Source: Candidatus Poseidoniales archaeon | GTDB lineage: Archaea > Thermoplasmatota > Poseidoniia > Poseidoniales > Poseidoniaceae | DNA length: 64,000 nt | Direction: 5' to 3' | NCBI GenBank assembly: GCA_038105035.1 | Contig: JAYOBT010000006.1 | Location: forward strand, 4,704 to 68,703 | In this document: in pieces, positions 16,492-31,245 of the stretch | How positions within the stretch are numbered: the stretch's first letter is position 1 | Layout: the number at the start of each line of letters is the position of its first letter | The notes under the pieces: generated by a model | The model's database searches: none | Told to the model about the DNA's origin: nothing | Seen by the model: only the letters and a program-made list of their open reading frames with translations | Made by a program: the position numbers and the translations under genes

Positions 16492-17619
16492 TCAATCCAC
16501 ACGGAACAAGCATTCTGTTGGACGTTTGAAGAACACATGACGGTATTTGGCAATCAAACGATAGCCAATGTTGCGCAGTGGTAATGGAATCGCCCAAAGT
16601 ACGGGGAACCACATCTTGTAGTACCAACGCATGTACAACACGCAACGAATACCTGCGGCTGAACGGATGTAGGGTTTGCCGTTTCGAATCAAATACACGG
16701 AATCTGCATTGCGTAACTTCGCTGGAAGTGTTTCGATAACTCGCTGTGCATCTTCATGGAGAATCGGTCGATAACCCAGCTGTTTGCCTTTCGCCAAGCG
16801 TTTGTCAAGGAACGTCGCAAGACGATGACAAAGGCCACAGTCACCATCCAAGAACAGGAAATCACGTTGATCGCTCACCTCAATACGTTCAGCCACTTCA
16901 ATCGACCACGTTTTGACGGGAAGTCCTTTGGAGATATGAACCACATCTGGGGAAAGGACGTCCAATCCCATCTTGTACGATTCGAGCAACGTGTTCGTTT
17001 CAAGTTCGACCCCACCTTCTTGGAACGACCAAGGTTGATGATGCACGTAGGCGCGTCGAAGGCAACCTTCGTGTTCGGTGTACAGGCAGTAACGTTCGAA
17101 GAGGAAGTATTCCAATGAATCAGGTTCAGCCGATTGCATCGAACCTTTGGCATTCGACGTTCCTCGCAATTCTGCACCATCGCTTGATCGGCGCGATTGC
17201 CATTGCAAGGTATCTCCACTGCGTTTCACTTTGGCTTTTGCATAGCGATACGCAAGACCGTATGCTCGAGGGGCATGGAAACAGGTGACAAGACTTTTCG
17301 CGTCCAACGTAAGGAAGAAAACGCCCGGTTGTCCGTCCTTGACGACGTAGGTGCGCACATTGAATTCAGCAAAGGTGGAGATACCTGGAACAGCAGGCAA
17401 TCCTCGCGGCCGTACATTCTTCATGATGAATGGAATCACGCCAACGTAGGCTTCACCTTCGAACACATCGATCTCCAATCCATCTGGAAGGTGTGGTTGC
17501 AGTCGTTCAGCGTCAACCTTCCAGTGCATGAAAGTCAGGTCACGCCATTCTTGCGAGACGGCATAAGGGCGGTTTGGCATTGGGAACGGAAGATGTCCGT
17601 CCTCACGCTTTGCGCCCAT
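16492..17619 (-). CDS. fusion protein: N-terminal DUF2071 (YqjF-like) domain plus C-terminal DCC-family thiol-disulfide oxidoreductase (DUF393)
   Basis: The N-terminal half (WRDLTFMHWKVDAERLQPHLPDGLEIDVFEGEAYVGVIPFIMKNVRPRGLP...FAEFNVRTYV) is the DUF2071 pattern. The C-terminal FLFLDGDCGLCHRLATFLDKR is the DG.C.LC motif of the DCC family. Confidence 0.75.
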   Translation of the reverse strand: MGAKREDGHLPFPMPNRPYAVSQEWRDLTFMHWKVDAERLQPHLPDGLEIDVFEGEAYVGVIPFIMKNVRPRGLPAVPGISTFAEFNVRTYVVKDGQPGVFFLTLDAKSLVTCFHAPRAYGLAYRYAKAKVKRSGDTLQWQSRRSSDGAELRGTSNAKGSMQSAEPDSLEYFLFERYCLYTEHEGCLRRAYVHHQPWSFQEGGVELETNTLLESYKMGLDVLSPDVVHISKGLPVKTWSIEVAERIEVSDQRDFLFLDGDCGLCHRLATFLDKRLAKGKQLGYRPILHEDAQRVIETLPAKLRNADSVYLIRNGKPYIRSAAGIRCVLYMRWYYKMWFPVLWAIPLPLRNIGYRLIAKYRHVFFKRPTECLFRVD

Positions 17620-17650: not shown

Positions 17651-18982
17651 TCATTGACGGCTTCTTGTTGCATGACGCAGATCGAGCATGGAGGAAAACA
17701 CGCACAGCGCAGCACCCATTGGAAGTGCGTAGCGCAAGCCTTCACCGCTCAACAAGACCACAGCCAGCGTGATTATTGCCAGTAGGGCAATCGTGGCCAT
17801 TTGGTAAACTGGAGGTGAAGGTGCAGATGCTTCCAAGGCCCATGACAGGGGCGTCGTTGCCATGATGGCAAACCATGCCCCGAGAACGAGGAACGGAGCA
17901 TGCTCAAACATGAGGAACCACAGCAATGGTCCAAACATCAAGCTCCAGCGAACCCAGTTGAGTTCAGGTCGCGGGCCATCGTCAAAACCAAGCAACGGAA
18001 GCAGCAACACACCTGCCATCAAGGCACACATCCATCCAACCAACCACAACGAAGAACGTACGGAGATCGCATCCGGCGTCTGTTGATTCTGCATGAGGAG
18101 GCTTGTAACCAGCAACAGAAGGGCAACACTCACACCGATGCTCCACGCAAGCGCTTTGCTTCGACCGTTCCCGGCACCGAGGTGCGGGTCAACGTCACGA
18201 TGTGGAACCACGAACACGTGAAGATTGAAGGCGACGATGACCCACAACCACAACGTCGCTGTTTGGTCATCTTGTCTCGGATTAGTCCACCATGAGGCAT
18301 CAAAGACACCAGATTCGAGAAACGCCATGAACAGATAGACGAAGGCCGTGAATAGCAATGGCGACATTGGGAGATAGAAGCGTTGCTGATGGTGTCGCAG
18401 ACCACGTTGTGGGGCATGTGCATTGAGCATACCTGTGATGACAACCAATTGAACCAAAACAAGAAACACAACGCTCCAGAGATCGACCTGTGGTGCTGGC
18501 ATGGAGATCAATGGCAGCGTCTCTGGAGCGATGTAGGCCGAATCGTCGAAGACCAACGTCGATGAAATCAACAGCATAAGGGCCAAGCTTCGCTTGAGTT
18601 TTTGCAGTCCTTCAACCGACCATGCCTGACGTGATCCTTGCCCGTTCCATGCAAACAGATAGACGAGTGGAAGAACCATCCACTCAACCAATCCGTCGCC
18701 CGCAAACAAAACATGCAGTCGCTCGGTCATGCTCGAGCCGCTGTCCAAGTAGGCTGCCACCTCAAGGTGCGTGGTATCATGAGAGAAGAGAGCAGAAATA
18801 CGTAGTGAGATGATGACAGCAAGCAGAGCGAATGGAAGCCATCGCAATACCCGAAGCAAGGATTCACTCTTGTTGCGTGCGAAAGTTTCCACCGACTTGG
18901 GAAACATCCACATGGCGATGGACCCGAAGAAGAGCGGGACCAACCAAGGCATGTCATCGCCCAGCATGAACCGACCACACAT
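17651..18982 (-). CDS. polytopic integral membrane protein (~12 TM), function unknown
   Basis: 443 aa, almost entirely hydrophobic helices separated by short loops. The true start could be M6 or M11. Confidence 0.6.
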   Translation of the reverse strand: MCGRFMLGDDMPWLVPLFFGSIAMWMFPKSVETFARNKSESLLRVLRWLPFALLAVIISLRISALFSHDTTHLEVAAYLDSGSSMTERLHVLFAGDGLVEWMVLPLVYLFAWNGQGSRQAWSVEGLQKLKRSLALMLLISSTLVFDDSAYIAPETLPLISMPAPQVDLWSVVFLVLVQLVVITGMLNAHAPQRGLRHHQQRFYLPMSPLLFTAFVYLFMAFLESGVFDASWWTNPRQDDQTATLWLWVIVAFNLHVFVVPHRDVDPHLGAGNGRSKALAWSIGVSVALLLLVTSLLMQNQQTPDAISVRSSLWLVGWMCALMAGVLLLPLLGFDDGPRPELNWVRWSLMFGPLLWFLMFEHAPFLVLGAWFAIMATTPLSWALEASAPSPPVYQMATIALLAIITLAVVLLSGEGLRYALPMGAALCVFSSMLDLRHATRSRQ

Positions 18983-19043: not shown

Positions 19044-20753
19044 ATGGGCGAGCGCAGTGGTGAGGACGGTCTCCTTGCCCAAGCAGAAATTGCACCGCTC
19101 ACCGGCCTTGCAGAATCGCTTGGTCTTGACCGCAATGAATGGATTGAAACGGCAACCAAACCTCTTCCAGAAACGCTACGCCTCACCATGAACCACTACG
19201 ATGTGGAGTGGACTCGGCAGCAACTTCTCGAGATGGGTGCCACGCCTCTGTCTTGGTCGGTTGGGAACGAAGCCTATCAACTCCCCTTTGCTCGAGGCCA
19301 AGCTCCTCGCGATGGAACACGTGAACTGCTCGCCTTGCTTCACGACACGGGACGTGTGACACGACAAGAAGCGGCCAGTATGCTTCCGATTCTGGTGCTT
19401 GATCCACAACAGGACGAACTTCTTCTGGACCTCTGTGCAGCTCCAGGTTCGAAAGCCACCCATGCAGCAGAACGTATGGCGCCAAGCGGTGTCGTCGTTG
19501 CCAACGAACCGATTTCTGGTCGCGTCAACATGCTGGCGAGCAACCGAGGACGATTGTCGCTCCACAATGTGATCATCACCCAACACGATGGTCGTCACGT
19601 TGGACGTATTCCGAAACCAGGCTTCGATGCCATCGTCGCCGATGTCCCATGTACGGGAAGCGCCACATCTCGCAAGAACAAGGATGTGTGGTGGAGTTGG
19701 TCACCAAAAGGTGGGCGAACGATGTTCCAATTGCAAGTTGATATCGCTACCAGAGGAGCACAGTTGCTTCGACCCGGTGGGATGATGGTTTACTCCACAT
19801 GTTCCATCGACCCTGTCGAAAACGAGGCGGTCATCAGCGAGTTGGTTCGTAAGTGTCCATGGATGGAAGTTGTTGGAATCGATGAATCCAAGGTTGAAGG
19901 CTTGGTTTGGCATCAGGGCTTGACCTCATGGATACCACTCGATGAGAATGGAAAGGTCCCCGAACAACCAGAAGATGTTCCGTTCTTTGATGAACGATAC
20001 CTGCCGCCTAAGGAGCAAGAACTGCTTGCAGCATTGCCAAAGACCCGTCGATTGTATCCACAAGACAACAACACGGGTGGCTTCTATGTGGCCCTACTTC
20101 GACATCGAGAGGATGCCACCCCTGAAGGCGTTGCCAAGACGTTCATCGATAAGTTGGCCAAGCGACGTGAGGACTCCGGATGGGAGTCACGCCTCCTTGA
20201 CAAGCCGGGAACCAATCGCCACACCGTCCATGCTGCCGAAGAGGGAGAAGCCGCTATTGTCATGGAACAATGCCAATTGATGGATGCTGGGTTCTCGTGG
20301 TGGAAGCGTGGCAAGCGTATGGCTGTCGCTCCGAAACTTGTTCATGACCGTATTTGGGCACAAGAAACGCCAAACAAACGCGGCGATCGATGGCCAGGTG
20401 GAACCTTCCACCCACTGCAAGTGCTCCATGTAGGCCTGCCTGCATTTGTTTCCAAAAACGGCAACTGGCGGGCTCGACAAGAATCCATTCCTCTGCTCTA
20501 TTCACAACTCTCCGAGACAATTACGCACATCGAACACGATGTCTTGATGCGTCTTCTCAACAATGAGGCCCTGGAACCAGACGTGGTGTTCGGACAACAA
20601 GACCCGCCACAAGGTGCCTTCCTGCTGCGATGCATCCATCATACTGGCTCTCTTATCATCAACGCATGGTGCGGTACAAGAATCACGCTGATGCTTGACA
20701 AGGCTGAACGGCGCTTGTTGTCGATTCGTTTGGGTTTGGAGGAAGAGGAATGA
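19044..20753 (+). CDS. NOL1/NOP2/Sun (RsmB/Trm4-like) RNA cytosine-C5 methyltransferase with a ~230-aa C-terminal extension
   Basis: LLLDLCAAPGSKATH (SAM motif I), VVANE, FDAIVADVPCTGSATSRKN (motif IV, PC), and MVYSTCSIDPVENEAVI (motif VI, TC). Confidence 0.85.
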   Translation: MGERSGEDGLLAQAEIAPLTGLAESLGLDRNEWIETATKPLPETLRLTMNHYDVEWTRQQLLEMGATPLSWSVGNEAYQLPFARGQAPRDGTRELLALLHDTGRVTRQEAASMLPILVLDPQQDELLLDLCAAPGSKATHAAERMAPSGVVVANEPISGRVNMLASNRGRLSLHNVIITQHDGRHVGRIPKPGFDAIVADVPCTGSATSRKNKDVWWSWSPKGGRTMFQLQVDIATRGAQLLRPGGMMVYSTCSIDPVENEAVISELVRKCPWMEVVGIDESKVEGLVWHQGLTSWIPLDENGKVPEQPEDVPFFDERYLPPKEQELLAALPKTRRLYPQDNNTGGFYVALLRHREDATPEGVAKTFIDKLAKRREDSGWESRLLDKPGTNRHTVHAAEEGEAAIVMEQCQLMDAGFSWWKRGKRMAVAPKLVHDRIWAQETPNKRGDRWPGGTFHPLQVLHVGLPAFVSKNGNWRARQESIPLLYSQLSETITHIEHDVLMRLLNNEALEPDVVFGQQDPPQGAFLLRCIHHTGSLIINAWCGTRITLMLDKAERRLLSIRLGLEEEE

Positions 20754-21889
20754 GGGCCTACATCGTCCTGTTCCTCGTTGCTCTCCTGCCGCTCGCATCT
20801 GCTGCAACAAGCATTCACATCGAGTGGGATGTTGAGCAACCCGTTGATGATGACCGTCGTTATGTCGAACATTTTCCCAGTTCAACGGTTGAATGCACGG
20901 ATTGTGTGCAAACGACCAACGATGACATCGTCGTAAATTGGTGGAGATACAGCGACCAAACCGGCTCCTCATGGCCTGATGACGATGCGAATCTCCGAGC
21001 TGGACTGATGGGCGTTGAGTTGAATCAAAGCCGTTCCATTATCAACGGGAACGGTGAGGAAGAGCGGCAACATCTCATCGACATCCAAGGAACACTATCG
21101 ATCCGTTCGGAACTTGAAGACCAGTACTTTCTTGTTGCCAATTTGACGGTCGAACCATTGGTTGATCTTCGCAACGACGTCATCATGCAATTCCTGTTCG
21201 TCGAAGAGCAGAGTACCGATCAACACGGGCGTGAGTTGTCCTATCTTGTTCGTGATTTGACATCGGAGGTTGGTTTCTTTCGAACCGCAGGCAACATCTC
21301 AGAGGTGAACGTTACCGTTTCGTATGAACACCTCTTTGCTGCAGGCGTTGACCTTGTCGATGAGCGCTATGGCTGGAAGGTGTTCATCGTCGTCATGGGT
21401 GCGGAATCGGCTTCCCTCGACTCCCCTGGTGTTATCGCTCTCTACGAAACGTCGGTACCAACTTCGAGTGAGCAACTTAGCTTCATCGATTATTTACCAC
21501 CCATCGTGTTCATCGCAGTCGCCCTTGTTATCGTGTTCTCTGTCGTTCGTAGTTCGTTCAATCAGGAACATGGCTTGCCTGAAATCCGAGCACGCTGGAA
21601 GGATGGGGCCGATCCGGCCATCACCATCGAAATCGATGCCAAGCGTCGGGATGTTGCCATCCAAGGATGTGAAGCCTCCGAGCCGTGGTCCATGCGAGGT
21701 GGTGTGAAACGAAGCACCATCGAATCCGGATCAACAACGAATTTCGATGTTCGATTCAAAAAATGGCATCAACAAGGTTTGGTTTTGAAATTGAAGATGG
21801 AGGTCGACACGCTCGGTGGATGGACCCAAAACATCCGCTTACCGGTTCGCAGCAAAGCCGAACGAAGCGTTGAAGATGAGCAAGACTAA
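20750..21889 (+). CDS. hypothetical type-I membrane protein (signal peptide, ~240-aa ectodomain, TM, ~100-aa cytoplasmic domain)
   Basis: MRAYIVLFLVALLPLASAAT is the signal peptide. The TM is LPPIVFIAVALVIVFSVV. Its ATG overlaps the methyltransferase stop (ATGA). Confidence 0.6.
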   Translation: MRAYIVLFLVALLPLASAATSIHIEWDVEQPVDDDRRYVEHFPSSTVECTDCVQTTNDDIVVNWWRYSDQTGSSWPDDDANLRAGLMGVELNQSRSIINGNGEEERQHLIDIQGTLSIRSELEDQYFLVANLTVEPLVDLRNDVIMQFLFVEEQSTDQHGRELSYLVRDLTSEVGFFRTAGNISEVNVTVSYEHLFAAGVDLVDERYGWKVFIVVMGAESASLDSPGVIALYETSVPTSSEQLSFIDYLPPIVFIAVALVIVFSVVRSSFNQEHGLPEIRARWKDGADPAITIEIDAKRRDVAIQGCEASEPWSMRGGVKRSTIESGSTTNFDVRFKKWHQQGLVLKLKMEVDTLGGWTQNIRLPVRSKAERSVEDEQD

Positions 21890-22988: not shown

Positions 22989-23966
22989 ATGCCAGCGGAA
23001 GATACCGTTTTCTACGTGCTTTACGACAAATACATGTTCTGGTCAATTCTTGTAGCGATTTTCACTTTTGGATGGCTCTTTACCGCCATGTTGCGCTACC
23101 GTGACGGTGTTGAACCAGATACCACAAAACTCGACCACATCGAGGTTGGCGCCTTCCCTGTGGATCGGCATAACACGAAACTGGAAGCCATGTTCTACAT
23201 CCTTCCAACCATCCTTGTTGTTTGGCTCACCATTCTTGCCCTCGGCTCCAACACAGCCGTTTGGAACCCTGACACCGAGGACTCCTTCGAGATCAACATC
23301 AACGCCTACCAATGGTACTTCGAATTCGACTATGCTGAGCAACTCACATGGGAAGACACCGACACTGGAATTGATGTCCAGTGGGACCAAGGTATCATGC
23401 AAGTCGATGCCTCTGGCAACCCTGATGCTGCGAGCATCGAAGTCAAGCTCGACAATCAGAAGTCTGACTATGAGATCAACAACGGTTCAAGCCTCATGGC
23501 CATCACAGCGACCTATGATCTTGGTCGACACACCTACGTCAAGGTCTTCGATGCTGAAGGTGCTTTGATTCACACATGGGAGCACATCCCTCGAGGACAC
23601 ACATTCATCACACCTTCTGAGCCAATGATCGTTCCTTGCGACCAACTCGTTGACGCGACCATGAAGTCCAGAGGTATCGAGGGCGATGAGCGCAACGTTG
23701 GTGTTCAACACGCCTTCTGGGTTCCAGAATGGGGAATGAAGGAAGACTTCGTTCCTGGGCTCGAAGCAGGTACAACACTCTACTTCATGCCAGACGATGC
23801 TGGCACTTTCCCAATCCGCTGTGCTGAGTACTGTGGTCTTCAGCACTCTGTCATGACCGGTCAGGTCATGGTCGTCGCTCCAGAAGGTACAACCTGTGAC
23901 TACGACTCCGGTGTCAAGAAGACAAACACGGACACGTCTGGAGACGATTATGGAGGTGAAATGTGA
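22989..23966 (+). CDS. coxB: heme-copper (cytochrome c/quinol-type aa3) oxidase subunit II, with a ~90-aa insertion in the cupredoxin domain
   Basis: Two N-terminal TM helices. QWYFEFDY, then the insertion, then VQHAFWVPEWGMKEDFVPG and the CuA motif CAEYCGLQHSVM. Confidence 0.85.
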   Translation: MPAEDTVFYVLYDKYMFWSILVAIFTFGWLFTAMLRYRDGVEPDTTKLDHIEVGAFPVDRHNTKLEAMFYILPTILVVWLTILALGSNTAVWNPDTEDSFEININAYQWYFEFDYAEQLTWEDTDTGIDVQWDQGIMQVDASGNPDAASIEVKLDNQKSDYEINNGSSLMAITATYDLGRHTYVKVFDAEGALIHTWEHIPRGHTFITPSEPMIVPCDQLVDATMKSRGIEGDERNVGVQHAFWVPEWGMKEDFVPGLEAGTTLYFMPDDAGTFPIRCAEYCGLQHSVMTGQVMVVAPEGTTCDYDSGVKKTNTDTSGDDYGGEM

Positions 23967-26347
23967 TGCGACGACGCGTTGTCGGCATCCTTTCCCTGCT
24001 TCTTGTCGCCTTGATGTTGGTCCCTCAATTTAGTGCCCTCCCAGGTGGAATTGGTGCTGCAGGAAACGCTGGTTGTTCCTGTCACGCTGGTGGCGATGAT
24101 GGTTCAACCGCCATCCTCGTTGAGGGCCTTCCTGAAACCTTCAATGCAAGCGAGAGTTACGTCTTCACCATCACACTCGTCAACGACGAGATGACACTCT
24201 ACGGTAACGGTGACCCAGCCCAAGGCTGGAGCGGCGTCCAAGGTGGATTCCGAATCGTCCTTGAGGGCGGTGGAAGCGTTACCACCATCGATCCATCCTA
24301 CAGCCAAGTTGTTGATGGTGGATTAACACACTCAGAGGACGGAAACAAATTCCGTTCATGGGACTTTGAATTCCAAGCACCTGTCAGCGATGCTGCAACC
24401 GTTGAGATGACCATCATCGGTAACGCCGTTAGCGGTGGTGCAGTCAGTGGCGGTGCAACCGGTGCTGGTGATGGTACAGCCAACGATTACTGGAACGTCC
24501 AGACCGTTGTCGTCCCAGGATTGAACGCTGAAGCCAAAGGGCCAAGCGCACCTCCATTGGTCATCCTCTTGACCGCTGTTGGACTGTCCATCTCCATTAT
24601 CCTCCTTGGAACGATGTGGGTCTTCTACCGACGCAGCCCTGAAACATTCACCGTTGGAAGTTTCTGGAGCTACCTCAAGCCGTGGTTGACCACAACAGAC
24701 CACAAAGAAGTCGGTATCCTCTACTTCTTGTTTGGATTCTTCTTCTTCCTCGTTGGTGGCGTTCTTGCGCTCTTGTTCCGTATTCAACTCGCTCTCCCAG
24801 AGAACGATTTCCTAACGCAGCAAGAGTACAACTCGTTCTTCACCTTGCACGGAACGACCATGATTTTCCTTGGTGCTATGCCAATGATCGCTGGATTCCT
24901 CAACTACGTTCTACCGCTCCAAATCGGTGCAAAGGACCTTGCTTTCCCTCGAATCAACGCCATGGGTCTTTGGCTTCTCGTCTTCTCAGCACCACTCATC
25001 TTCTCAGGAATTTGGTCTGGCGAAGGTGCGGACATTACGTGGGTCATGTATCCACCATACTCCTCACTGAGCAACGCTGGAGATTACGGTGCCAATGCAG
25101 GAACGACAGCGTTCATTGCAGGTATGCTGATGCTGGGTGCATCATCGACACTGGGTGGTGTCAACTTCATCACCACGGTGTTCACCATGCGAGCTCCTGG
25201 TATCACATGGATGAAGATGCCACTCTTCACTTGGTCTGCCTTCGTCAGCGTCTTCATGCTGTTCATGTCCTTGCCAGCACTCATCATTGGTGTTGCCTTC
25301 CTGATGTTTGACCATACGATAGGTTCGACGTTCTTTACAGGCGGAGGCGATCCGTTGCTGTTCCAACACCTGTTCTGGTTCTTCGGCCATCCTGAGGTCT
25401 ACGTTGTTATCATTCCAGCCTTTGGTATCGTTTCCGAAGTACTAGCGACGAGTGCGCGACGTTCCATCTTCGGCTACAAGTCGATGGTCTTCGCCATGGC
25501 GGGTATCGGTATCGTCGGGTTCATCGTTTGGGGGCACCACATGCTCACCTCGGGTATGGACCCATTCTGGCGTGCTGCCTTCATGATCACGACCATGGCG
25601 GTTGCGATTCCAACCGGTGCGAAGATCTTCAACTGGTTGATGACACTCTGGGGCGGCTCACTGGTCATGAAGACCCACACGCTTTGGGCTCTTGGATTCC
25701 TTATCACCTTCACACTCGGAGGTATCTCTGGAATGTTCTTCCCTGTTGCAGGGCTTGACACGCACTTCCACGATTCCTACTTCGTCGTTGCTCACTTCCA
25801 CTACGTGTTTATCGGCGGTACGGTGTTCGCACTGTTCTCTGGCGTCTACTACTGGTACCCGAAAGCAACTGGACGCAAGCTCAACGAGACACTTGGTCTC
25901 TGGCACTTCTTGATTGGATTCGCTTCCTACAACGCTGCCTTCTGGCCAATGCACGCTCTTGGTATCCAAGGTATGCCTCGTCGAACCCACTCCTACACCG
26001 TAGAGAGTGGCTTTGCCGAGTACAACATGGCGATCACCATCTTTGCCTTCATCTTCGGATTGAGCCAACTCCTTCTGGTTTGGAACCTCGTCTATTCCGG
26101 AAAGAACGGCGAAAAGGCTGGCAAGGACCCGTGGGGCGGTTGGTCCCTCGAGTGGTCCACCACTTCGCCACCACCAACTCCTTCCTTCCACGTCATTCCT
26201 ACACAGCGTGACATGAACGAAATCTACGGCCACCATGCTGAAGACTCGATGAAAGAGAAGCTGTGGAAAGGCAAGAAGAAAGGTGATGCAGCCAAGAAAT
26301 CCACTGTGGTGAGTGCTGTACTCTCCACCTCAGGGGAGGAGATTTGA
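23966..26347 (+). CDS. coxA: heme-copper oxidase subunit I fused to an N-terminal ~230-aa extracytoplasmic domain
   Basis: The ATG at 23966 overlaps the coxB stop (TGATG). From about residue 235 the canonical subunit I is present: TTDHKEVGILYF, WFFGHPEVYVVIIPAFG, GHHMLTSG, VAHFHYVFIGG. The N-terminal part is a signal/TM segment, a beta-rich domain with GCSCH, and an extra TM. Confidence 0.9.
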   Translation: MRRRVVGILSLLLVALMLVPQFSALPGGIGAAGNAGCSCHAGGDDGSTAILVEGLPETFNASESYVFTITLVNDEMTLYGNGDPAQGWSGVQGGFRIVLEGGGSVTTIDPSYSQVVDGGLTHSEDGNKFRSWDFEFQAPVSDAATVEMTIIGNAVSGGAVSGGATGAGDGTANDYWNVQTVVVPGLNAEAKGPSAPPLVILLTAVGLSISIILLGTMWVFYRRSPETFTVGSFWSYLKPWLTTTDHKEVGILYFLFGFFFFLVGGVLALLFRIQLALPENDFLTQQEYNSFFTLHGTTMIFLGAMPMIAGFLNYVLPLQIGAKDLAFPRINAMGLWLLVFSAPLIFSGIWSGEGADITWVMYPPYSSLSNAGDYGANAGTTAFIAGMLMLGASSTLGGVNFITTVFTMRAPGITWMKMPLFTWSAFVSVFMLFMSLPALIIGVAFLMFDHTIGSTFFTGGGDPLLFQHLFWFFGHPEVYVVIIPAFGIVSEVLATSARRSIFGYKSMVFAMAGIGIVGFIVWGHHMLTSGMDPFWRAAFMITTMAVAIPTGAKIFNWLMTLWGGSLVMKTHTLWALGFLITFTLGGISGMFFPVAGLDTHFHDSYFVVAHFHYVFIGGTVFALFSGVYYWYPKATGRKLNETLGLWHFLIGFASYNAAFWPMHALGIQGMPRRTHSYTVESGFAEYNMAITIFAFIFGLSQLLLVWNLVYSGKNGEKAGKDPWGGWSLEWSTTSPPPTPSFHVIPTQRDMNEIYGHHAEDSMKEKLWKGKKKGDAAKKSTVVSAVLSTSGEEI

Positions 26348-27693
26348 TGGGCGGAGGAGGCGGCAGCGACGTCAAGAACGCTGTCTGGATGCGTGCTCTG
26401 ATCATGGCAGGTATGATTCTCGGTTTTGCCGTCGTCTCATACGTCGGTCTCGGTGTTGTTGTTGCTGATGTGAAGCACCACACTTGGGAAGACGAAGAAG
26501 CACACTATTACGAGGTCAAGAAAGAGTGGCAAGATGCTGTCGATGCTGGTGAAATTCAAAGCGATGACAAGGATGCTGATCTGTACAAAGCCAAGGAAGA
26601 AGCCCATCATCATGAGATTGATGCGCACCTCTCTTATCTTACATACCGAGTTGCTGGATTGGCAATTCTCTTTGTTGGAATCATCTTCACAGCCTTCCTG
26701 GTCATCAGTGGAATCATGAATTCTTCACGACCAGATGAGCATCACGATGACCATCATGGTCACGATGAGCACGAGCATCATGGTTCGGCTTCGCCGATCA
26801 TCTTCTCGTTCGGTTGTCTGTTGTTCCTTCTCGGATTCCCTGACTTCGCTGACGGCCTGCACGGCCTGATGATGGGAAGCGCCAAGGGTACCATTGCAGA
26901 CCTCTCCGTCTCAATGATCGGATTGACCGTCGTCACGGTTGGTATCGCCAACTGGTGGCGAGAAGACCTCCCGTTCAACGGCTACGGTGAGCAACTCGCA
27001 ACCTCTGATCCATTTGCAGGACAACACATCCGCAAAGCAGGCATCTGGGTCTTCTTGATGTCTGAAGTGATGGTCTTCGCTACCTTCTTCTCATCCTACC
27101 TACGTATGCGTACCGAGTGGTGCACAAAGTGGGCGCTCGATGATGGCAAGTGTACCCTTGCTGAAGGCGAGTCCGTGGTCATGACTGCGTCGGATTATCT
27201 CCGGCCTGGTGGTGCTGCTGGCACAGGTGACTTCTGGACCATGCTACCTGGAGCTGTCAACACCTTTGCGTTGATTATTTCCTCATACACCATTGTCTTG
27301 GCACTCAAGGTTGCCAAGTCGCACGATTACAAAATGCCAGGTGGCTTGCTCGGCAAGATGATGCCAACCAAGAAGGCAGCCATTCGCAACTACCTCATCA
27401 TCACCCTCGCATTGGGTACAATGTTCATTGTTCTCAAGTTGGTTGAGTGGAGCCATCTCATCGCAGAAGGCTTCACCGTCGGAACCGAACAAGGTTCAAT
27501 CTTCTATGTGGCAACTGGTGCACACGGTGTTCACGTCTTCGCTGGATTGTTGGTCATGCTCTACATGGTCTTCAAGGCCGACACGGTTGAGTGGAACGAG
27601 GAGAACGCACAGGGAATCGAATACTTCGGTCTCTACTGGCACTTTGTCGATTTGGCTTGGGTTGTTATCTTCCCAGCCTTCTATCTGTATTGA
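26347..27693 (+). CDS. coxC: heme-copper oxidase subunit III with a ~215-aa N-terminal extension (extra TMs plus a His-rich loop)
   Basis: The ATG at 26347 overlaps the coxA stop (TGATG). The C-terminal ~230 aa match subunit III (GAHGVHVFAGLLVMLYM, YWHFVDLAWVVIFPAFYLY). Confidence 0.85.
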   Translation: MGGGGGSDVKNAVWMRALIMAGMILGFAVVSYVGLGVVVADVKHHTWEDEEAHYYEVKKEWQDAVDAGEIQSDDKDADLYKAKEEAHHHEIDAHLSYLTYRVAGLAILFVGIIFTAFLVISGIMNSSRPDEHHDDHHGHDEHEHHGSASPIIFSFGCLLFLLGFPDFADGLHGLMMGSAKGTIADLSVSMIGLTVVTVGIANWWREDLPFNGYGEQLATSDPFAGQHIRKAGIWVFLMSEVMVFATFFSSYLRMRTEWCTKWALDDGKCTLAEGESVVMTASDYLRPGGAAGTGDFWTMLPGAVNTFALIISSYTIVLALKVAKSHDYKMPGGLLGKMMPTKKAAIRNYLIITLALGTMFIVLKLVEWSHLIAEGFTVGTEQGSIFYVATGAHGVHVFAGLLVMLYMVFKADTVEWNEENAQGIEYFGLYWHFVDLAWVVIFPAFYLY

Positions 27694-28077: not shown

Positions 28078-29604
28078 ATGCGAACCATCGCTGTCTTCAT
28101 CACCGGATTGCTGTTGTCGGTCGTTCTTGCTGGAGCACCTGTATCTGCCTACAACGGCATTCAGTTGAGTTATGCCAGTGTGGGCAATTTCACATTGGTC
28201 GATCAAAACAATTCTGAATACAAGCTATCGGATGCAACAGAAGAAATCGTGGTCGTCTCGTTCTTCTTCACACGCTGTCCTGACGTATGTCCGGTCATCA
28301 CCCAGAATCTCAAATTGGTTCATGATACGCTTCCAGAAGAACTTGAAGACAATGTGGGCTTCGTTGCCATCACCCTCGATCCAAAGTACGACACACCTGA
28401 AGTTCTGACCGACTACATGGATCGACACGGCGTTGATTGGCCTCACCTTACAGGCCCGACCGAGGATGTCAAGGACGTTTGGTCACGCTTCGCTATCTAT
28501 GCTGAGGAATACATCACCGATGCACACGATGACAACGTCAGCGACATGGAAGGTCAAGTTCATGATTCCAGCGTCGTTTATGTTCGACCTGATGGTACTG
28601 CTGAGGAACTGATGTTCCTTCCGACGGGCATGACCATGACCTCTGCAGCGGCTGCAGAAGCAGGTTGGTCGCTCAATACATCAGACACACAATACGGTAC
28701 GATGATCAACGGAATCGAAGGCTACGACTCACCAGCAGACTGGAGTTGGTGGTGGAGTCTCAAATTGTTTGATGAGGCAACACAACGTTGGGAAGATTCT
28801 CCTGTTGGTGTTGATTCCGTGAACGCACTTGAAGAAACGCACCTTGCATGGTATGCGACCAACGCTAACATCAGTCTCCTCGAACCACCAATGGGCGACA
28901 CACCGAGCGTTCAAGTCGTCTTCCCAGACAATACGACCTCCTTCACGAATGTTTCCACATTCACTGGTTACCACCTCACACAAGGTGCCTTTGATGGCGC
29001 TGAAATCGACGTTGATGTTCAGGACAGTCAGTTTGGCCACTTCCTGAACAGCATCGACAATGTTTCCGCTCCAGCCGACTGGAGTTGGTACTGGGAACTT
29101 CATACATGGAACGACACCTCAGCACAGTGGGAAGACTCCATGGTCGGCATGGATGGAATCGATGATCCGATGGCCATCGCTTGGGCTTCCAACAACACGA
29201 GCAACGATGCCATACCACTCCCAGGCTTTGCTGTCGTTGAAGACAGTGAGTGCAACGGACATGGTTGGGTCATGGGATCGGGAAGCAGGGCGCACTGCAT
29301 GTGCGACGCTGGCTACGAATGGGCCGAAGACGACATGCTCACATGCATCCCTGTTGAATCTGAACCAGAATACACTGTTGGGCATTTTGCCTACACCTAC
29401 ATTCTCGATGAGGACAAGAAACCTCGTGTCCGATACGTCGACGATTCATGGCTCGCTTCTGATTTCGTTGAGGATGTTGTCGAACTCGCTGAGCGAGAAG
29501 GCATCATCTCAAATGAATCGGAAGGCATCCCTTCGATTGGACTCCTTGTCTCCGTCGCAGTCGTCTCAATGGCTGCGATTTCTCTGCGATCAAAATCTGA
29601 GTAA
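28078..29604 (+). CDS. SCO1/SenC copper chaperone fused to two W-rich (DUF4430-like) modules, an EGF-like Cys module and a C-terminal TM anchor
   Basis: VVVSFFFTRCPDVCPVITQNL (CxxxC) and QVHDSSVVYVRPDG (conserved His) define the SCO domain. This is followed by the repeats ..SPADWSWWWSLKLFDEATQRWEDSPVGVDS.. and ..APADWSWYWELHTWNDTSAQWEDSMVGMDG... Then comes CNGHGWVMGSGSRAHCMCDAGYEWAEDDMLTC and the TM IGLLVSVAVVSMAAI. Confidence 0.8.
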   Translation: MRTIAVFITGLLLSVVLAGAPVSAYNGIQLSYASVGNFTLVDQNNSEYKLSDATEEIVVVSFFFTRCPDVCPVITQNLKLVHDTLPEELEDNVGFVAITLDPKYDTPEVLTDYMDRHGVDWPHLTGPTEDVKDVWSRFAIYAEEYITDAHDDNVSDMEGQVHDSSVVYVRPDGTAEELMFLPTGMTMTSAAAAEAGWSLNTSDTQYGTMINGIEGYDSPADWSWWWSLKLFDEATQRWEDSPVGVDSVNALEETHLAWYATNANISLLEPPMGDTPSVQVVFPDNTTSFTNVSTFTGYHLTQGAFDGAEIDVDVQDSQFGHFLNSIDNVSAPADWSWYWELHTWNDTSAQWEDSMVGMDGIDDPMAIAWASNNTSNDAIPLPGFAVVEDSECNGHGWVMGSGSRAHCMCDAGYEWAEDDMLTCIPVESEPEYTVGHFAYTYILDEDKKPRVRYVDDSWLASDFVEDVVELAEREGIISNESEGIPSIGLLVSVAVVSMAAISLRSKSE

Positions 29605-29648: not shown

Positions 29649-29733
29649 GCGGAGGTCGCATAGCCAGGTATTGCGCCGGATTTGAAATCCGGTGTCTTAT
29701 GACTCGGGGGTTCAAATCCCTCTCTCCGCGCCA
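29649..29733 (+). tRNA. tRNA-Ser (anticodon UGA), class II with a long variable arm, CCA encoded
   Basis: Manual fold. Acceptor stem GCGGAGG/TCTCCGC. Anticodon stem CCGGA/TCCGG with loop TT-TGA-AA. Variable arm GTC-TTAT-GAC. T-arm GGGGG-TTCAAAT-CCCTC. Discriminator G plus CCA. Confidence 0.85.
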
Positions 29734-29781
29734 TCCATTTCAAGAGAAGCATTCACAAACTCTAGGACCTCTCAACCGGAT

Positions 29782-31245
29782 ATGGGCCGAGTGTTGCTAG
29801 GCATTCTTCTTGCATCCACCATTCTTCTCGCTGGTTGTCTTGCACCCGTTTCACCCGATTGGGGGAGCGACATTTCCGTTGAACGAAACGGCGATGGTTC
29901 CTTCACGTTCACATCTTCAATGGCCGGTCAAACCGTGAATTCACAATACGATGAGCGCGGTTGTACCGATGGAACTGTGAATGCGGATCAAACTGGAAAA
30001 ATCAAATTCGAAGGATACATGAGTGCGAGCCAAATTTACGAGTCGCACGATTCTGAACTGTTGAACGAAGATGTGGCTTTTGCTACTGCTGCAGCGATTG
30101 CCGTTCACTCCATGCCGTTCGCTGATGCAAAGAATCTCCAATCGGGAGAAGGAGAGCGGGTCGAAGTGAAGGATTGGACCGATCCTGTCGGCCCAAAGAC
30201 TGGAGCAGGTACAGCAAACCTTGAGAAAATCGATAGTGAATCGGACAGCAAGTGGTTCGTTCTTGGATTGATTCCAGCTTCTGAGAACATCAATGATGGT
30301 GTTGCTGCACTCGGAAAATACCACCAACCAGTCCGTATCACAGGATATCTTGTCGAGAGCACAAATGGTGGGTCTCCTGTGGGAGGCATCTGGAGCGGTC
30401 CAAATGACGTCCAGGTATCACAAGATTGTGTTGCACGAACTGGAAATCAAAACATTGCTCAGGTCTATGTCCTTGTCACAAAGATCGAACTCGCCGACAG
30501 CGTTGTTAGCCTTGACGGTGAACATGAAGATGAGTACACCTTTGGTGATGTATCGATGCTCGGTCGTACAGGATTCATTCTCTTCTTGCTCGTTGTCGGT
30601 GCAGGTGGTGCAGTTGGTGCCTACATGTATTCCTCACTTCGACTCAGAATGAGTGCTCGAAGTGTCGCTCTTACCCTCCTTGGCAAAGAGGGTGTCGAAA
30701 AGGCGGCTCAAGTTCGTAAGGACGTCAAAGATGCGAAGCGCTCTGGAATGACAACACCTGATGAGCGACGGGCTGAACAACGCAAACAAAGCAAACCTAC
30801 TGAGACCCCTAAGAAGTCGAAAAAGAACGAAGACGATGGATTCGGTTCCTTCTCAATCGATAGTGCACTTGGAAGCGCTAGTTCATCACCTTCACGCTCA
30901 GAATTCGGTTCTGGAAGTTCTGTCGTTGCCTCTGATGATGCGAATCGCGTCGAGAAACAAATCAAAGACAGCGAACCTTTCGTCCCCCCATCCTCAACCT
31001 TTGGTGGAGGCGCTCCTGTCTCAAGTTCCTCTCCCTCTGCACCGACATCAGTGCCTTCATCCAGCGCTCGGTCCTCAGAGCCAGCGAAGACCTCTGAACC
31101 TGCTGACAAACCAAAGCCTCGACGTCGTAGAGCTGTTCGAAAGCAGGCCGAGCCCGAACCTGAGCCTGAAGCAGAACCAGAACCTCAACGACAGAAAGAG
31201 TTCTGGAACGATGATGAAGAAGAGTTCTCGGACTTCAGTTTCTAA
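29782..31245 (+). CDS. lipoprotein-like membrane protein with a ~190-aa disordered S/P/K/E-rich cytoplasmic tail
   Basis: Start set at the ATG at 29782, because the track start lies inside the tRNA. MGRVLLGILLASTILLAGC has a lipobox-like LAGC. The TM is GFILFLLVVGAGGAVGAYMY. The tail ends in EFWNDDEEEFSDFSF. Confidence 0.6.
   Translation: MGRVLLGILLASTILLAGCLAPVSPDWGSDISVERNGDGSFTFTSSMAGQTVNSQYDERGCTDGTVNADQTGKIKFEGYMSASQIYESHDSELLNEDVAFATAAAIAVHSMPFADAKNLQSGEGERVEVKDWTDPVGPKTGAGTANLEKIDSESDSKWFVLGLIPASENINDGVAALGKYHQPVRITGYLVESTNGGSPVGGIWSGPNDVQVSQDCVARTGNQNIAQVYVLVTKIELADSVVSLDGEHEDEYTFGDVSMLGRTGFILFLLVVGAGGAVGAYMYSSLRLRMSARSVALTLLGKEGVEKAAQVRKDVKDAKRSGMTTPDERRAEQRKQSKPTETPKKSKKNEDDGFGSFSIDSALGSASSSPSRSEFGSGSSVVASDDANRVEKQIKDSEPFVPPSSTFGGGAPVSSSSPSAPTSVPSSSARSSEPAKTSEPADKPKPRRRRAVRKQAEPEPEPEAEPEPQRQKEFWNDDEEEFSDFSF

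What the first reader, a model, noticed from the sequence alone, without database searches (positions are those of the whole stretch)
23966..24661. Novel-looking Cys-x-Cys-His domain fused to the N-terminus of oxidase subunit I
Before the canonical 12-TM CoxA core there are three elements: a signal/TM segment, a ~170-aa beta-rich Gly/Val/Thr-rich domain, and an extra TM helix that restores topology. The domain contains a single GCSCH motif (nt 24074-24085), which is C-x-C-H rather than the heme-c motif C-x-x-C-H. It ends in a W.FEF.AP......V.M.I.GNAV.G pattern. That pattern reminds me of Reeler/DOMON-like extracellular domains, some of which bind heme or metals. A redox or metal-binding domain covalently attached to subunit I, on the side where electrons normally arrive at CuA, could be the missing electron-entry module.
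Basis: partly seen in the sequence, partly recalled or inferred. Interest (0 to 1): 0.7.

Follow-up and report, generated by a model that had tools for sequence, protein, structure and literature searches.

The report
Conserved Cys-x-Cys-His domain on archaeal oxidase
Marine Group II archaea, abundant ocean microbes in which no cytochrome c has been found, carry an outward-facing Reeler-type beta-sandwich with an invariant Cys-x-Cys-His motif fused to the front of the main subunit of their oxygen-reducing enzyme; it probably holds a metal or haem cofactor and may be how electrons (or copper) reach that enzyme.

Summary
ORF 23966..26347 encodes a signal peptide, a ~160-aa beta-sandwich with GCSCH, one extra TM helix, and a complete A-type CoxA core.

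It is not an assembly artefact. The same fusion occurs in 35 species-level Poseidoniales genomes and in 30 further metagenome loci from divergent lineages.

The domain is not unclassified. It passes NCBIfam NF041895 (choice-of-anchor V), a family with no papers found, and is a remote Reeler-domain homologue: the fold matches the F-spondin reeler domain, and bacterial relatives pass Pfam PF02014.

C-x-C-H is present in all 193 full-length archaeal members held. A second His (H123) is present in about 97%. These are the only Cys in the 794-aa protein and the only His in its first 235 residues. Bacterial relatives have C-x-x-C-H at the aligned position.

The family is tied to the oxidase in three ways: fused to coxA, free-standing just downstream of fused coxA, or free-standing just downstream of a Sco1 gene. 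Every neighbouring CoxB examined keeps an intact CuA motif, and no cytochrome c or cupredoxin was seen nearby.

Best reading (0.4): a cofactor-binding electron-entry module, copper favoured over covalent haem. Main rival (0.3): a built-in copper chaperone. The cofactor itself is untested.

The parts
22989..23966 (+). coxB (subunit II, 325 aa). It has a complete CuA motif (H241; C278-x-E-x-C-G-x2-H-x2-M) and the QW electron-entry Trp motif. A 91-aa insertion (aa 116-206, nt 23334-23606) follows directly after that motif.
   Evidence: PF00116 E 1.9e-7; motifs located
23966..26347 (+). Fused gene: choice-of-anchor V / Reeler-like ectodomain + TM0 + CoxA core. The ORF listing starts it at GTG 23963; the likely start is ATG 23966, overlapping the coxB stop codon.
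23966..24037 (+). Signal peptide / N-terminal hydrophobic segment (residues 2-25; MRRR, h-region, FSA|LP)
   Evidence: Hydropathy peak at 6-24. Free-standing homologues have the same segment followed by a C-terminal anchor.
24038..24520 (+). Extracytoplasmic 9-strand beta-sandwich domain (residues 26-186). It is a member of NCBIfam NF041895 and a remote Reeler homologue.
24074..24085 (+). C38-S39-C40-H41, preceded by the invariant G37 at nt 24071. These are the only two Cys in the 794-aa protein. The middle residue is free to vary: 13 different amino acids occur there across the family.
24242..24253 (+). G94-G95-F96-R97. G95 is invariant and F96 is 97% conserved. Residue 97 covaries with residues 31-35 and with residue 120.
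24320..24334 (+). G120-L-T122-H123-S124. T122 and H123 are 95-97% conserved, and H123 is the only other His in residues 1-235. Inferred to be part of the same site as C-x-C-H.
24359..24436 (+). It covers strands 7-8 and contains the invariant W133 and the conserved P140, N154, V156 and G158.
24431..24481 (+). Gly/Ala/Ser-rich loop of variable length (residues 157-173). It is modelled with low confidence (pLDDT below 50 for residues 160-170).
24521..24550 (+). Short linker (residues 187-196, GLNAEAKGPS...)
24551..24634 (+). Extra transmembrane helix TM0 (residues ~197-224). It returns the chain to the cytoplasmic side before CoxA TM1.
   Evidence: Hydropathy peak at 199-217; helix at 198-224
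24683..26200 (+). CoxA core, A-type. Haem a/a3 and CuB ligand motifs are present: LHGT at residue 295, GHPEVY at 475, WGHHM at 523, AHFHY at 610.
   Evidence: TIGR02891 matches residues 241-746; PF00115; motifs
26344..27693 (+). coxC (subunit III, 449 aa) with a long N-terminal extension that includes a His-rich stretch, PDEHHDDHHGHDEHEHHG (nt 26731-26784)
   Evidence: PF00510
27703..28068 (+). coxD (subunit IV, 121 aa)
   Evidence: PF03626
28078..29604 (+). Sco1/SenC copper chaperone (CPDVC motif). It is fused to two W-rich repeats (starting at nt 28741 and 29080), a Cys-rich module (nt 29248 onward) and a C-terminal TM helix.
   Evidence: PF02630 E 2.1e-27

Best explanation
The N-terminal extension is an extracytoplasmic Reeler-fold domain. 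It is tethered to oxidase subunit I by one extra TM helix and carries a single conserved cofactor site built from C38, C40, H41 and H123.

I think it most likely acts as the oxidase's built-in electron-entry module, functionally like the cytochrome c domain of caa3 oxidases or a tethered cupredoxin. In that reading it accepts electrons from the cytochrome b/Rieske complex or from a membrane-anchored free-standing paralogue and passes them to CuA in CoxB. I favour copper (a Cys2His2-type thiolate centre) over a covalently bound haem as the cofactor, by roughly 60:40.

Shown here:
- the anatomy and the topology logic;
- family membership and the Reeler relationship;
- the presence of C-x-C-H in every full-length member held and the near-invariance of H123;
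- order-wide conservation of the fusion;
- genomic linkage of the family to cox and sco genes;
- intact CuA in every partner CoxB examined.

Inferred: that a cofactor is bound at all, which cofactor it is, and the direction and partner of electron transfer.
For: 1. The fusion is real and old. It is a continuous ORF in all 35 Poseidoniales loci from species-representative genomes, with domain identity of 44-97%. It appears again in 30 of 50 analysable metagenome loci that were found with a profile of free-standing members. Fused representatives down to roughly 30% domain identity still carry a full COX1.

2. There is a cofactor-like signature.
- G37, C38, C40 and H41 are invariant and H123 is 97% conserved across 65 diverse members.
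- 188 of 193 members have exactly two Cys in the domain, so there is no other disulfide partner.
- The residue between the two Cys is unconstrained.
- The window protein has no other Cys at all, and no other His in residues 1-235.

3. The conserved elements probably form one site. APC-corrected mutual information on 258 sequences (effective number 137) recovers beta-sheet registers such as 65-136/69-132 and 49-155/51-153. Its top-ranked pairs link residues 31-35, just before C-x-C-H, to residue 97 (next to G95-F96) and to residue 120 (three residues before H123).

4. Bacterial relatives keep the 'CH' and vary only the Cys spacing (C-x-x-C-H). That pattern is typical of haem-c motifs, and both spacings are also classic Cu(I) motifs (my own knowledge).

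5. The family is linked to the oxidase. A second free-standing copy lies directly downstream of the fused coxA in L049, L050, L064, L106 and L075. Another free-standing copy lies directly downstream of a Sco1 gene in six loci. The other recurrent neighbours are ctaA, ctaB, coxB, coxC, coxD and sco.

6. A donor is needed and none is known. All 29 neighbouring CoxB proteins keep C-x-E-x-C-G-x2-H-x2-M, and most keep the QW Trp motif. No cupredoxin or cytochrome c was seen in the window or among the recurrent neighbours that were annotated. In the literature, no cytochrome c was found in any Thermoplasmatota genome analysed, blue copper proteins sit next to complex IV in other orders with Poseidoniales not listed among them, and MGII lacks a canonical bc1 complex (PMC9287336, PMC6336850).

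7. From my own knowledge, extra redox domains permanently fused to haem-copper oxidase subunits are, in characterised cases, electron donors (caa3), not assembly factors.
Against: - There is no direct evidence for any cofactor. I had no access to model coordinates, so the distances between C38, C40, H41 and H123 were not measured.
- C-x-C-H is not a known haem-c motif. No cytochrome c maturation system is known in this phylum, and I did not test for one.
- No copper centre has been described in a Reeler fold, and no papers were found on the subject.
- The domain shows no sequence match to cupredoxins, cytochromes, DOMON, Cox11 or PCuAC.
- Counting strand directions suggests the conserved site sits at the membrane-distal end of the sandwich. 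Reaching CuA would then need re-orientation on a linker of only about 10 residues.
- The free-standing paralogues I examined are not next to cytochrome b/Rieske genes.
- Flavobacterial relatives are T9SS surface cargo with no respiratory gene context.
- Adjacency to Sco1 fits a copper-trafficking role at least as well.
Confidence: 0.4

Rival explanations
1. The domain is a built-in copper chaperone or scavenger. It binds Cu(I) through C38, C40 and H41 (plus H123) and hands it to the oxidase's own CuB and/or CuA sites together with Sco1. That would make it a functional analogue of Cox11 (CFCF motif, Ig-like domain, TM anchor) or of PCuAC, kept in cis because copper is scarce in the open ocean.
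For: - Both C-x-C and C-x-x-C are classic Cu(I) motifs (my own knowledge), and this role needs no maturation system.
- Sco1 is in every cox operon examined.
- A free-standing family member sits immediately downstream of a small lipoprotein Sco1 in six loci. This resembles the sco-pcuC gene pairs of bacteria (the comparison is from my own knowledge).
- No Cox11 or PCuAC homologue was seen in the operon.
- One free-standing subfamily has a predicted mature N-terminus of Ser-Ser-His, an ATCUN-like X-X-His Cu(II) motif. Its conserved upstream partner is a membrane protein with a predicted N-terminal His.
- CoxC carries a His-rich loop and Sco1 carries extra ectodomains, so the operon seems decorated with possible metal-binding modules.
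Against: - Chaperones act sub-stoichiometrically. As far as I know, none is fused to a haem-copper oxidase subunit.
- Permanent 1:1 fusion across all lineages of organisms with small genomes looks more like a catalytic part.
- The six Sco1-adjacent loci represent only about three distinct lineages, and sibling loci lack the Sco1 gene.
- There is no sequence or top-50 fold match to Cox11, PCuAC, CopC or YcnI.
- This role leaves the electron donor to CuA unexplained.
Confidence: 0.3
2. The domain has no cofactor. It is a structural, adhesive or glycan-binding Reeler domain that, for example, contacts the S-layer or cell envelope or shields the oxidase. In this reading the two Cys form a strained C-x-C disulfide, and the conserved Trp, Arg, Asn, Asp and Gln residues form a sugar or calcium site.
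For: - Characterised Reeler domains (F-spondin, insect Reeler proteins) are adhesion or pattern-recognition modules with no known cofactor (my own knowledge).
- The family is named for surface proteins with interchangeable anchors, and members here carry PGF-CTERM, T9SS or TM anchors.
- The conserved W133, W137, W177, R131, Q115, N154, N157, D159 and D175 resemble a carbohydrate- or Ca-binding surface.
Against: - A purely structural disulfide rarely tolerates a change of spacing (C-x-C to C-x-x-C) while the next residue stays strictly His.
- The second conserved His, and the covariation that ties the motif region to it, point to a ligand set.
- The repeated, specific linkage to cox and sco genes is not expected for a generic adhesion module.
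Confidence: 0.2
3. The domain is a true c-type cytochrome, with haem attached covalently through an unprecedented C-x-C-H motif and ligated by H41 and H123. In architecture it is like cytochrome f: signal peptide, N-terminal haem motif, beta-sandwich, C-terminal TM helix. This is a cofactor variant of the best explanation, listed separately because it makes distinct predictions.
For: - Bacterial relatives have canonical C-x-x-C-H at the aligned position.
- The region of the family profile around the motif gives weak, non-significant matches to haem-c sites in PDB cytochromes (E 0.03-5).
- Cytochrome f appears among the Foldseek hits (E 2.6e-4 to 1.6e-3).
- The 'CH' pair is invariant while the Cys spacing varies.
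Against: - From my own knowledge, a one-residue spacing is not among natural or engineered haem-c motifs.
- The literature reports no cytochrome c in Thermoplasmatota.
- The TM-scores to cytochrome f are poor (0.26-0.32).
- No Pfam cytochrome family is matched.
Confidence: 0.15
4. The fusion is an assembly or frame-fusion artefact that joins a separate secreted-protein gene to coxA.
For: None found. Some database entries are partial and are annotated only as 'choice-of-anchor V domain-containing protein' because their contigs end inside the gene.
Against: The same uninterrupted ORF is present in 35 independently assembled genomes and in 30 metagenome contigs from many studies. The linker and TM0 are conserved.
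Confidence: 0.01

Closest known systems
NCBIfam NF041895, choice-of-anchor V domain proteins (for example T9SS cargo of Nonlabens and Leeuwenhoekiella, and PGF-CTERM or TM-anchored ~200-aa proteins of marine Thermoplasmatota)
   Same: The window domain scores above the family cutoff (57.5 against 42 bits). It shares the signal peptide, the beta-sandwich, and the conserved GGF, TH, W..W.AP and GN.VNG motifs.
   Different: Here the variable C-terminal anchor is replaced by a TM helix that runs on into a whole CoxA. Archaeal members have C-x-C-H where bacterial members have C-x-x-C-H. The family has no known function and no literature was found.
Reeler domain (Pfam PF02014; F-spondin reeler domain, PDB 2ZOT / 2ZOU / 3COO)
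   Same: These are the best structural matches (E 3e-5, target-normalised TM-score 0.54-0.60). A family profile hits the Spondin-1 sequence (E 4e-4). Bacterial family members pass the Pfam gathering score.
   Different: The window domain itself gives no PF02014 hit at E up to 1. Identity to F-spondin is 13-16%. The F-spondin reeler domain has no known cofactor, and the N-terminal C-x-C-H segment lies outside the aligned part of the profile (profile positions 23-125).
CYBDOM proteins (SDR2/FRRS1, Drosophila CG8399): Reeler + DOMON + cytochrome b561
   Same: A Reeler-type ectodomain is attached to the N-terminus of a haem-containing transmembrane redox enzyme and faces outward.
   Different: The membrane partner is different (b561 rather than a haem-copper oxidase), no DOMON domain is present here, and the role of the Reeler domain in CYBDOM proteins is itself unknown.
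caa3-type cytochrome c oxidases (cytochrome c domain fused to subunit II)
   Same: An A-type oxidase with CuA carries its own tethered extracytoplasmic domain, in a position where it could feed CuA. Some lineages also have a second membrane-anchored copy beside the oxidase genes, which resembles the anchored cytochromes c of Bacillus (the comparison is from my own knowledge).
   Different: The extra domain is on subunit I rather than II. It is a beta-sandwich rather than an all-helical class I cytochrome c. The motif is C-x-C-H, and the cofactor is unproven.
Copper chaperones of oxidase assembly: Cox11/CtaG (CFCF motif), Sco1 (CxxxC plus His), PCuAC
   Same: All are TM-anchored or lipid-anchored extracytoplasmic beta-rich domains. 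The ligand set of two Cys plus His resembles Sco1 and Cox11. The family shows gene adjacency to Sco1.
   Different: There is no sequence or top-50 fold similarity. The H(M)x10Mx21HxM motif of PCuAC is absent, since the domain has only two Met. The domain is permanently fused to its presumed client.
Cytochrome f
   Same: The order of parts is the same: cleaved signal peptide, cofactor motif near the mature N-terminus, beta-sandwich, C-terminal TM helix. It appears among the Foldseek hits.
   Different: Structural superposition is poor (TM-score 0.26-0.32, rmsd 13-15 A). There is no Pfam match. The motif is C-x-C-H rather than C-x-x-C-H, and the domain is not encoded with cytochrome b/Rieske genes.

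Membership tests
NCBIfam NF041895 choice-of-anchor V domain | HMM score at or above the curated cutoff (42 bits) | tested here: met
   57.5 bits, E 1.6e-15, residues 17-164 against profile positions 3-141 of 150. NCBI names close homologues the same way.
NCBIfam NF041895 choice-of-anchor V domain | N-terminal signal peptide and a C-terminal membrane or cell-surface anchor of variable type | tested here: met
   Signal-like segment at residues 2-25 and a TM helix at 197-224. Relatives carry PGF-CTERM, T9SS or TM anchors. Here, unusually, the 'anchor' continues into CoxA.
Pfam PF02014 Reeler domain | HMM score at or above the gathering threshold (21 bits) | tested here: not met
   The window domain gives no hit at E up to 1. 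Bacterial family members do pass (28.7-41.5 bits) and one archaeal member reaches 18.4 bits. The window domain is therefore a remote superfamily relative, not a Pfam-level member.
Pfam PF02014 Reeler domain | Reeler beta-sandwich fold | tested here: met
   The top Foldseek PDB hits are 2zot, 2zou and 3coo (E 3e-5, TMt 0.54-0.60) for a model with pLDDT 82.7.
c-type cytochrome | C-x-x-C-H (or C-Xn-C-H with n of 2 or more) haem attachment motif | tested here: not met
   The window protein and all 193 full-length archaeal members held have C-x-C-H. Only the bacterial relatives and two unassigned relatives (P0209, P0213) have C-x-x-C-H.
c-type cytochrome | Covalently bound haem, and a cytochrome c maturation system in the organism | not testable with these tools
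   Only 64 kb of the genome is available. The literature reports no cytochrome c (PF00034/PF01322) in Thermoplasmatota. Ccm and Ccs genes were not surveyed.
Cupredoxin / CuA-type copper centre | Cupredoxin fold with a C-terminal C-x(n)-H-x(n)-M ligand loop | tested here: not met
   No Pfam cupredoxin hit. A motif scan of the window finds the pattern only in CoxB and in the Cys-rich module of Sco1. The domain has a different ligand arrangement (C-x-C-H plus a distant His).
Cox11/CtaG (PF04442) and PCuAC (PF04314) copper chaperones | Family HMM match, and the CFCF or H(M)x10Mx21HxM motif | tested here: not met
   No hits at E up to 1, and neither appears among the top 50 fold matches. The domain has only two Met. 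The resemblance is functional at most.
DOMON (haem- or sugar-binding beta-sandwich) | DOMON-family HMM match or a top structural match | tested here: not met
   No DOMON, EB_dh or CDH-cytochrome hit in Pfam or among the top 50 Foldseek hits.
A-type haem-copper oxidase subunit I (CoxA) | COX1 HMM match; His ligands for haem a, haem a3 and CuB; the GHPEVY His-Tyr/Glu motif | tested here: met
   PF00115 E 1.4e-143. TIGR02891 scores 639.3 bits, just under the equivalog cutoff of 670.75. The LHGT, GHPEVY, WGHHM and AHFHY motifs are present. PMC9287336 classifies Poseidoniales coxA as subfamily A1.

The most novel reading that the evidence does not exclude
The domain defines a new class of extracytoplasmic redox centre: a Reeler-fold beta-sandwich holding either a copper-thiolate site (Cys2His2) or a haem attached through a never-before-seen C-x-C-H motif. 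Fused to subunit I, and helped by membrane-anchored free-standing paralogues, it would replace cytochrome c or cupredoxin as the electron route to CuA in Marine Group II (and related) archaea. It would also give the Reeler domain superfamily, including the Reeler domain of eukaryotic CYBDOM reductases, its first cofactor-based function.
Probability: 0.35. Interest if true: 0.85.

Novelty: new variant of a known kind. Interest (0 to 1): 0.62.

Why it matters
Marine Group II archaea are among the most abundant heterotrophs of the surface ocean and have not been cultured. Their respiratory chain, as reconstructed from genomes, has a gap: cytochrome b and a Rieske protein are present, but no cytochrome c1, no cytochrome c, and no blue copper protein next to the oxidase. 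Yet the oxidase keeps a CuA site, which needs a one-electron protein donor.

A strictly conserved cofactor-like domain welded to subunit I is an obvious candidate to fill that gap, or else to explain how the enzyme gets its copper in copper-poor seawater. It has free-standing paralogues in the same gene clusters and next to Sco1.

The domain is small and soluble, so it can be expressed and tested directly. That makes an open question experimentally tractable.

A result would also give a first biochemical handle on a family with roughly 500 sequence clusters (choice-of-anchor V) and possibly on the Reeler domain in general. If the cofactor turned out to be haem, C-x-C-H would extend the known rules for c-type haem attachment.

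Tried and rejected
- Direct sequence searches of the domain gave nothing. Pfam at E up to 1 and phmmer against PDB sequences both returned no hit. Only NCBIfam and profile or fold methods worked.
It was repeated with a narrower alignment, A5.
- Gene context of the free-standing 'SSHG' subfamily (P0185, P0170, P0202) and of two C-x-x-C-H relatives (P0213, P0209) showed no respiratory or metal-handling genes. The only finding was a conserved 166-169-aa membrane protein upstream in two lineages.
- The flavobacterial locus L036 has housekeeping neighbours only.
- Literature searches found nothing on 'choice-of-anchor V', on CXCH with haem (two unrelated papers), on reeler with CXXCH, on reeler with haem or copper as a cofactor, or on c-type cytochromes or blue copper proteins in MGII.
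- Cytochrome f homology was considered and rejected as a membership claim. The TM-scores are poor and there is no sequence signal. Only the order of parts is alike.
- DOMON, Cox11, PCuAC and cupredoxin membership were considered and rejected.
- A second copy of the domain in the window was looked for with a family HMM. None was found.
- I could not obtain coordinates of the AlphaFold model. The geometry of the putative site was therefore inferred only from strand order and from covariation.
- The second structure job was not used, because confidence values alone would not settle whether the domain docks onto CoxB.

Full report
**What is there.** The window comes from a Marine Group II archaeon of the family Poseidoniaceae. 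The closest loci from species-representative genomes are 92-97% identical over the domain.

The finding lies at the 5' end of a single ORF, 23963..26347 (+), 794 aa. The real start is probably the ATG at 23966, for two reasons. Homologues begin MRRR, and this ATG overlaps the TGA stop of the upstream coxB (ATGTGATG), which suggests translational coupling.

The protein has six parts:
- a signal-like segment, residues 2-25;
- a Gly/Ala/Val/Ser/Thr-rich domain, residues 26-186;
- a short linker;
- one extra TM helix, residues ~197-224;
- a complete A-type CoxA core (PF00115 at residues 250-697, E 1.4e-143; the LHGT, GHPEVY, WGHHM and AHFHY motifs);
- a short C-terminal tail.

The CoxA N-terminus is cytoplasmic (established knowledge). 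CSCH is at nt 24074-24085, and the W.FEF.AP......V.M.I.GNAV.G pattern is at residues 133-158.

**It is not an artefact.** All 35 Poseidoniales loci retrieved from species-representative genomes carry the same uninterrupted fusion wherever the contig allows it to be seen. Domain identity ranges from 97% down to 44%. C-x-C-H is present in all 33 loci whose N-terminus is intact (CSCH, CTCH, CACH or CFCH).

The gene order rsmB, orf379, asnC, orf229(-), coxB, fused coxA, coxC, coxD, sco, orf517 is conserved in every long locus.

A metagenome scan seeded with free-standing family members returned 73 loci. Of the 50 that could be analysed, 30 were again fusions to COX1 (720-780 aa). They come from several divergent lineages with different operon layouts, for example ctaA-ctaB-coxB-fusion-coxC-coxD.

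**What the domain is.** Pfam finds nothing in the domain, but NCBIfam NF041895 (choice-of-anchor V) matches above its cutoff (57.5 against 42 bits).

An exhaustive profile search found 499 clusters at 50% identity with E of 1e-3 or better. Most are ~200-aa proteins with a signal peptide, the domain, and a C-terminal TM or PGF-CTERM anchor.

An AlphaFold2 model built on 52 sequences gives a confident 9-strand beta-sandwich (pLDDT 82.7). Its best PDB matches are the F-spondin reeler domain (E 3e-5, TMt 0.54-0.60).

Three sequence results agree with that:
- Bacterial relatives, which are flavobacterial T9SS cargo, pass the Pfam Reeler gathering score.
- A mixed family profile hits the Spondin-1 reeler sequence (E 4e-4).
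- One archaeal member reaches 18.4 bits against Reeler.

'Novel-looking' needs qualifying, because the domain belongs to a catalogued family, although one without characterisation. I found no paper on that family.

**The motif.** Across 65 diverse members, G29, G37, C38, C40, H41, G95 and W133 are invariant. H123, in a conserved T-H-T motif, is 97% conserved.

All 193 full-length members held have C-x-C-H. Of these, 188 have exactly two Cys in the domain, the middle residue takes 13 different identities, and a His equivalent to H123 is present in 186.

In the window protein these are the only two Cys in 794 residues and the only two His in residues 1-235.

Bacterial relatives, and two unassigned ones, have C-x-x-C-H at the aligned position.

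APC-corrected mutual information on 258 sequences recovers plausible strand registers. Its strongest pairs tie residues 31-35, just upstream of the motif, to residue 97 (next to G95-F96) and to residue 120 (three residues before H123). This suggests that the C-x-C-H segment, the GGF strand and the TH strand form one site. That is an inference, because I could not read the model coordinates.

**Link to the oxidase.** The family occurs in three oxidase-related settings:
- fused to coxA;
- as a second free-standing copy immediately downstream of the fused coxA (L049, L050, L064, L106, L075);
- as a PGF-CTERM-anchored copy immediately downstream of a small lipoprotein Sco1/SenC (PF02630, E 3.4e-21, CYNTC motif) in six loci from about three lineages.

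Every CoxB encoded next to a fusion keeps the full CuA motif, and most keep the QW motif that contains the electron-entry Trp of characterised oxidases (the role of that Trp is from my own knowledge). In the window's CoxB, a 91-aa insertion follows this motif directly.

Neither the window nor the recurrent neighbours that were annotated include a cupredoxin or a c-type cytochrome.

Published genome surveys agree:
- MGII have cytochrome b and a Rieske protein but no canonical bc1 complex (PMC6336850).
- No Thermoplasmatota genome analysed has cytochrome c (PF00034/PF01322).
- Blue copper proteins flank complex IV in the other orders, and Poseidoniales is not listed among them.
- Poseidoniales coxA is of subfamily A1 and of bacterial origin (PMC9287336).

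**How it most likely works.** The site is invariant, has two Cys and two His as candidate ligands, has no other Cys available as a disulfide partner, faces outward, and is wired genetically to cox and sco genes. This argues for a bound cofactor.

Two functions fit:
- Electron entry, confidence 0.4. The oxidase needs a one-electron donor and none is known. In characterised oxidases, extra domains permanently fused to a subunit are donors (caa3, my own knowledge). The free-standing anchored paralogues beside the operon would play the part of anchored cytochromes c.
- Copper chaperone or scavenger, confidence 0.3. The ligand set resembles Sco1 and Cox11, and the Sco1 adjacency resembles bacterial sco-pcuC pairs. 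One subfamily has a predicted ATCUN-like Ser-Ser-His N-terminus, with a partner membrane protein that has a predicted N-terminal His. The operon also carries other possible metal-binding additions.

On the identity of the cofactor I favour copper. Both C-x-C and C-x-x-C are Cu(I)-type motifs, copper needs no maturation system, and Sco1 could load it.

Covalent haem remains possible. The evidence for it is the C-x-x-C-H in bacterial relatives, the invariant 'CH', the cytochrome f-like order of parts, and the weak cytochrome f fold hits. However, a one-residue spacing would be unprecedented, and the phylum is reported to lack cytochromes c.

A cofactor-free structural or glycan-binding role gets 0.2. 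It fits what is known of animal Reeler domains and the Trp/Arg/Asn/Asp-rich conserved surface. It explains the Cys/His pattern and the gene linkage poorly.

**Comparison and novelty.** The closest filed family is NF041895, and membership is met. The Reeler fold is met, but Pfam-level Reeler membership is not met for this sequence.

In function the closest systems are these:
- caa3 oxidases, though there the domain type is different and it sits on subunit II;
- eukaryotic CYBDOM reductases (Reeler + DOMON + cytochrome b561), where the Reeler role is also unknown;
- the copper chaperones Cox11, Sco1 and PCuAC, with which there is no homology.

I rate it a new variant of a known kind: a haem-copper oxidase whose subunit I carries a conserved Reeler-type ectodomain, apparently cofactor-binding, that the literature I could search does not describe.

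**Limits.**
- No cofactor was demonstrated.
- No atomic distances were available.
- The rest of the genome was not available, so cytochrome c maturation genes, cupredoxins and Cox11 could not be surveyed.
- Signal-peptide cleavage sites are predictions.
- The metagenome loci carry no taxonomy.

Noticed in passing
window 26344..27693 (coxC); His-rich stretch at nt 26731-26784: Subunit III is 449 aa, with a long N-terminal extension of about 200 aa that has extra hydrophobic segments. Two loops are acidic and His-rich (HHTWEDEEAHYY... and PDEHHDDHHGHDEHEHHG). These could bind metal. Only the C-terminal ~100 aa match PF00510.
   Followed up: partly
window 28078..29604 (sco): The Sco1/SenC domain (CPDVC motif) is fused to two W-rich tandem repeats of about 110 aa (WSWWWSL... 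and WSWYWEL...), a Cys-rich EGF-like module (ECNGHGWVMGSGSRAHCMCDAGYEW...C) and a C-terminal TM helix. This architecture is conserved across Poseidoniales (376-630 aa). The function of the added modules is unknown.
   Followed up: partly
window 23334..23606 (inside coxB): A 91-aa insertion sits in the cupredoxin domain of CoxB, immediately after the QWYFEFDY strand that carries the electron-entry Trp. That is the face where cytochrome c docks in characterised oxidases. Other fused lineages have shorter CoxB proteins (214-250 aa) without this insertion.
   Followed up: partly
L037-L041 (for example L038 7489..8600, L040 5482..6606): The free-standing 'SSHG' subfamily of the domain (~200 aa, found for example in Poseidonia sp.) has a predicted mature N-terminus of Ser-Ser-His-Gly, an ATCUN-like X-X-His motif. 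It is preceded, 10-13 nt upstream, by a conserved 166-169-aa multi-TM protein with a predicted N-terminal His (..A|HGG[ED]D; 40% identity between lineages). The pair may handle copper.
   Followed up: partly
L036 5911..6669; P0214-P0223: Flavobacterial relatives (Leeuwenhoekiella, Nonlabens) are ~255-aa proteins made of a signal peptide, a Reeler domain with SGSPGD....C-x-x-C-H, and a T9SS sorting domain. They would be surface proteins carrying a haem-c-like motif. Their gene neighbours are housekeeping genes only.
   Followed up: partly
window 20750..21889 (orf379) and ~29780..31245 (orf517): Two secreted or membrane-anchored proteins with no Pfam match flank the cox cluster in every Poseidoniales locus. 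orf379 has a signal peptide, an ECTDC motif and one TM helix. orf517 has a lipobox-like LAGC, one TM helix and a long low-complexity tail. The start that the ORF listing gives for orf517 (29692) overlaps tRNA-Ser, so the true start is further downstream.
   Followed up: no
window 29649..29733 (+) and 33410..33484 (-): tRNA-Ser(TGA) lies directly after sco and marks the end of the cox-sco cluster. tRNA-Arg(TCG) lies after ribD.
   Followed up: yes
L006 and L008; P0162 and P0164: There are database labelling problems. Two contigs carrying this archaeal gene at 92-95% identity sit in bins labelled Salipiger bermudensis and Rhodobiaceae, which is probably bin contamination. Several fused proteins are named 'cbb3-type cytochrome c oxidase subunit I', although the GHPEVY motif and the CuA-bearing CoxB show they are A-type.
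   Followed up: no
window 16492..17619 (-): A DUF2071 domain is fused to a DCC1-like thiol-disulfide oxidoreductase (DCGLCH). This is the only other real-looking C-x-x-C-H in the window, and it belongs to a cytoplasmic DxxCxxC redox motif rather than a haem site.
   Followed up: partly
window 11365..14766, 36179..39976, 17651..18982: Large ORFs of 1133, 1265 and 443 aa have no Pfam match at E of 1e-5 or better. A ~1270-aa ORF also lies next to PEPCK in the Poseidonia loci L037 and L038, as the 1265-aa ORF does in the window, but I did not compare the two sequences.
   Followed up: no
L046, L048, L052, L053 and others (position -1 or -2 relative to the free-standing PGF-CTERM copy): A ~1200-1250-aa secreted protein with thrombospondin-type-3-like Asp-rich repeats and a C-terminal TM helix is the conserved upstream neighbour of the PGF-CTERM family members, with or without the intervening Sco1 gene. 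It was not run against Pfam.
   Followed up: no
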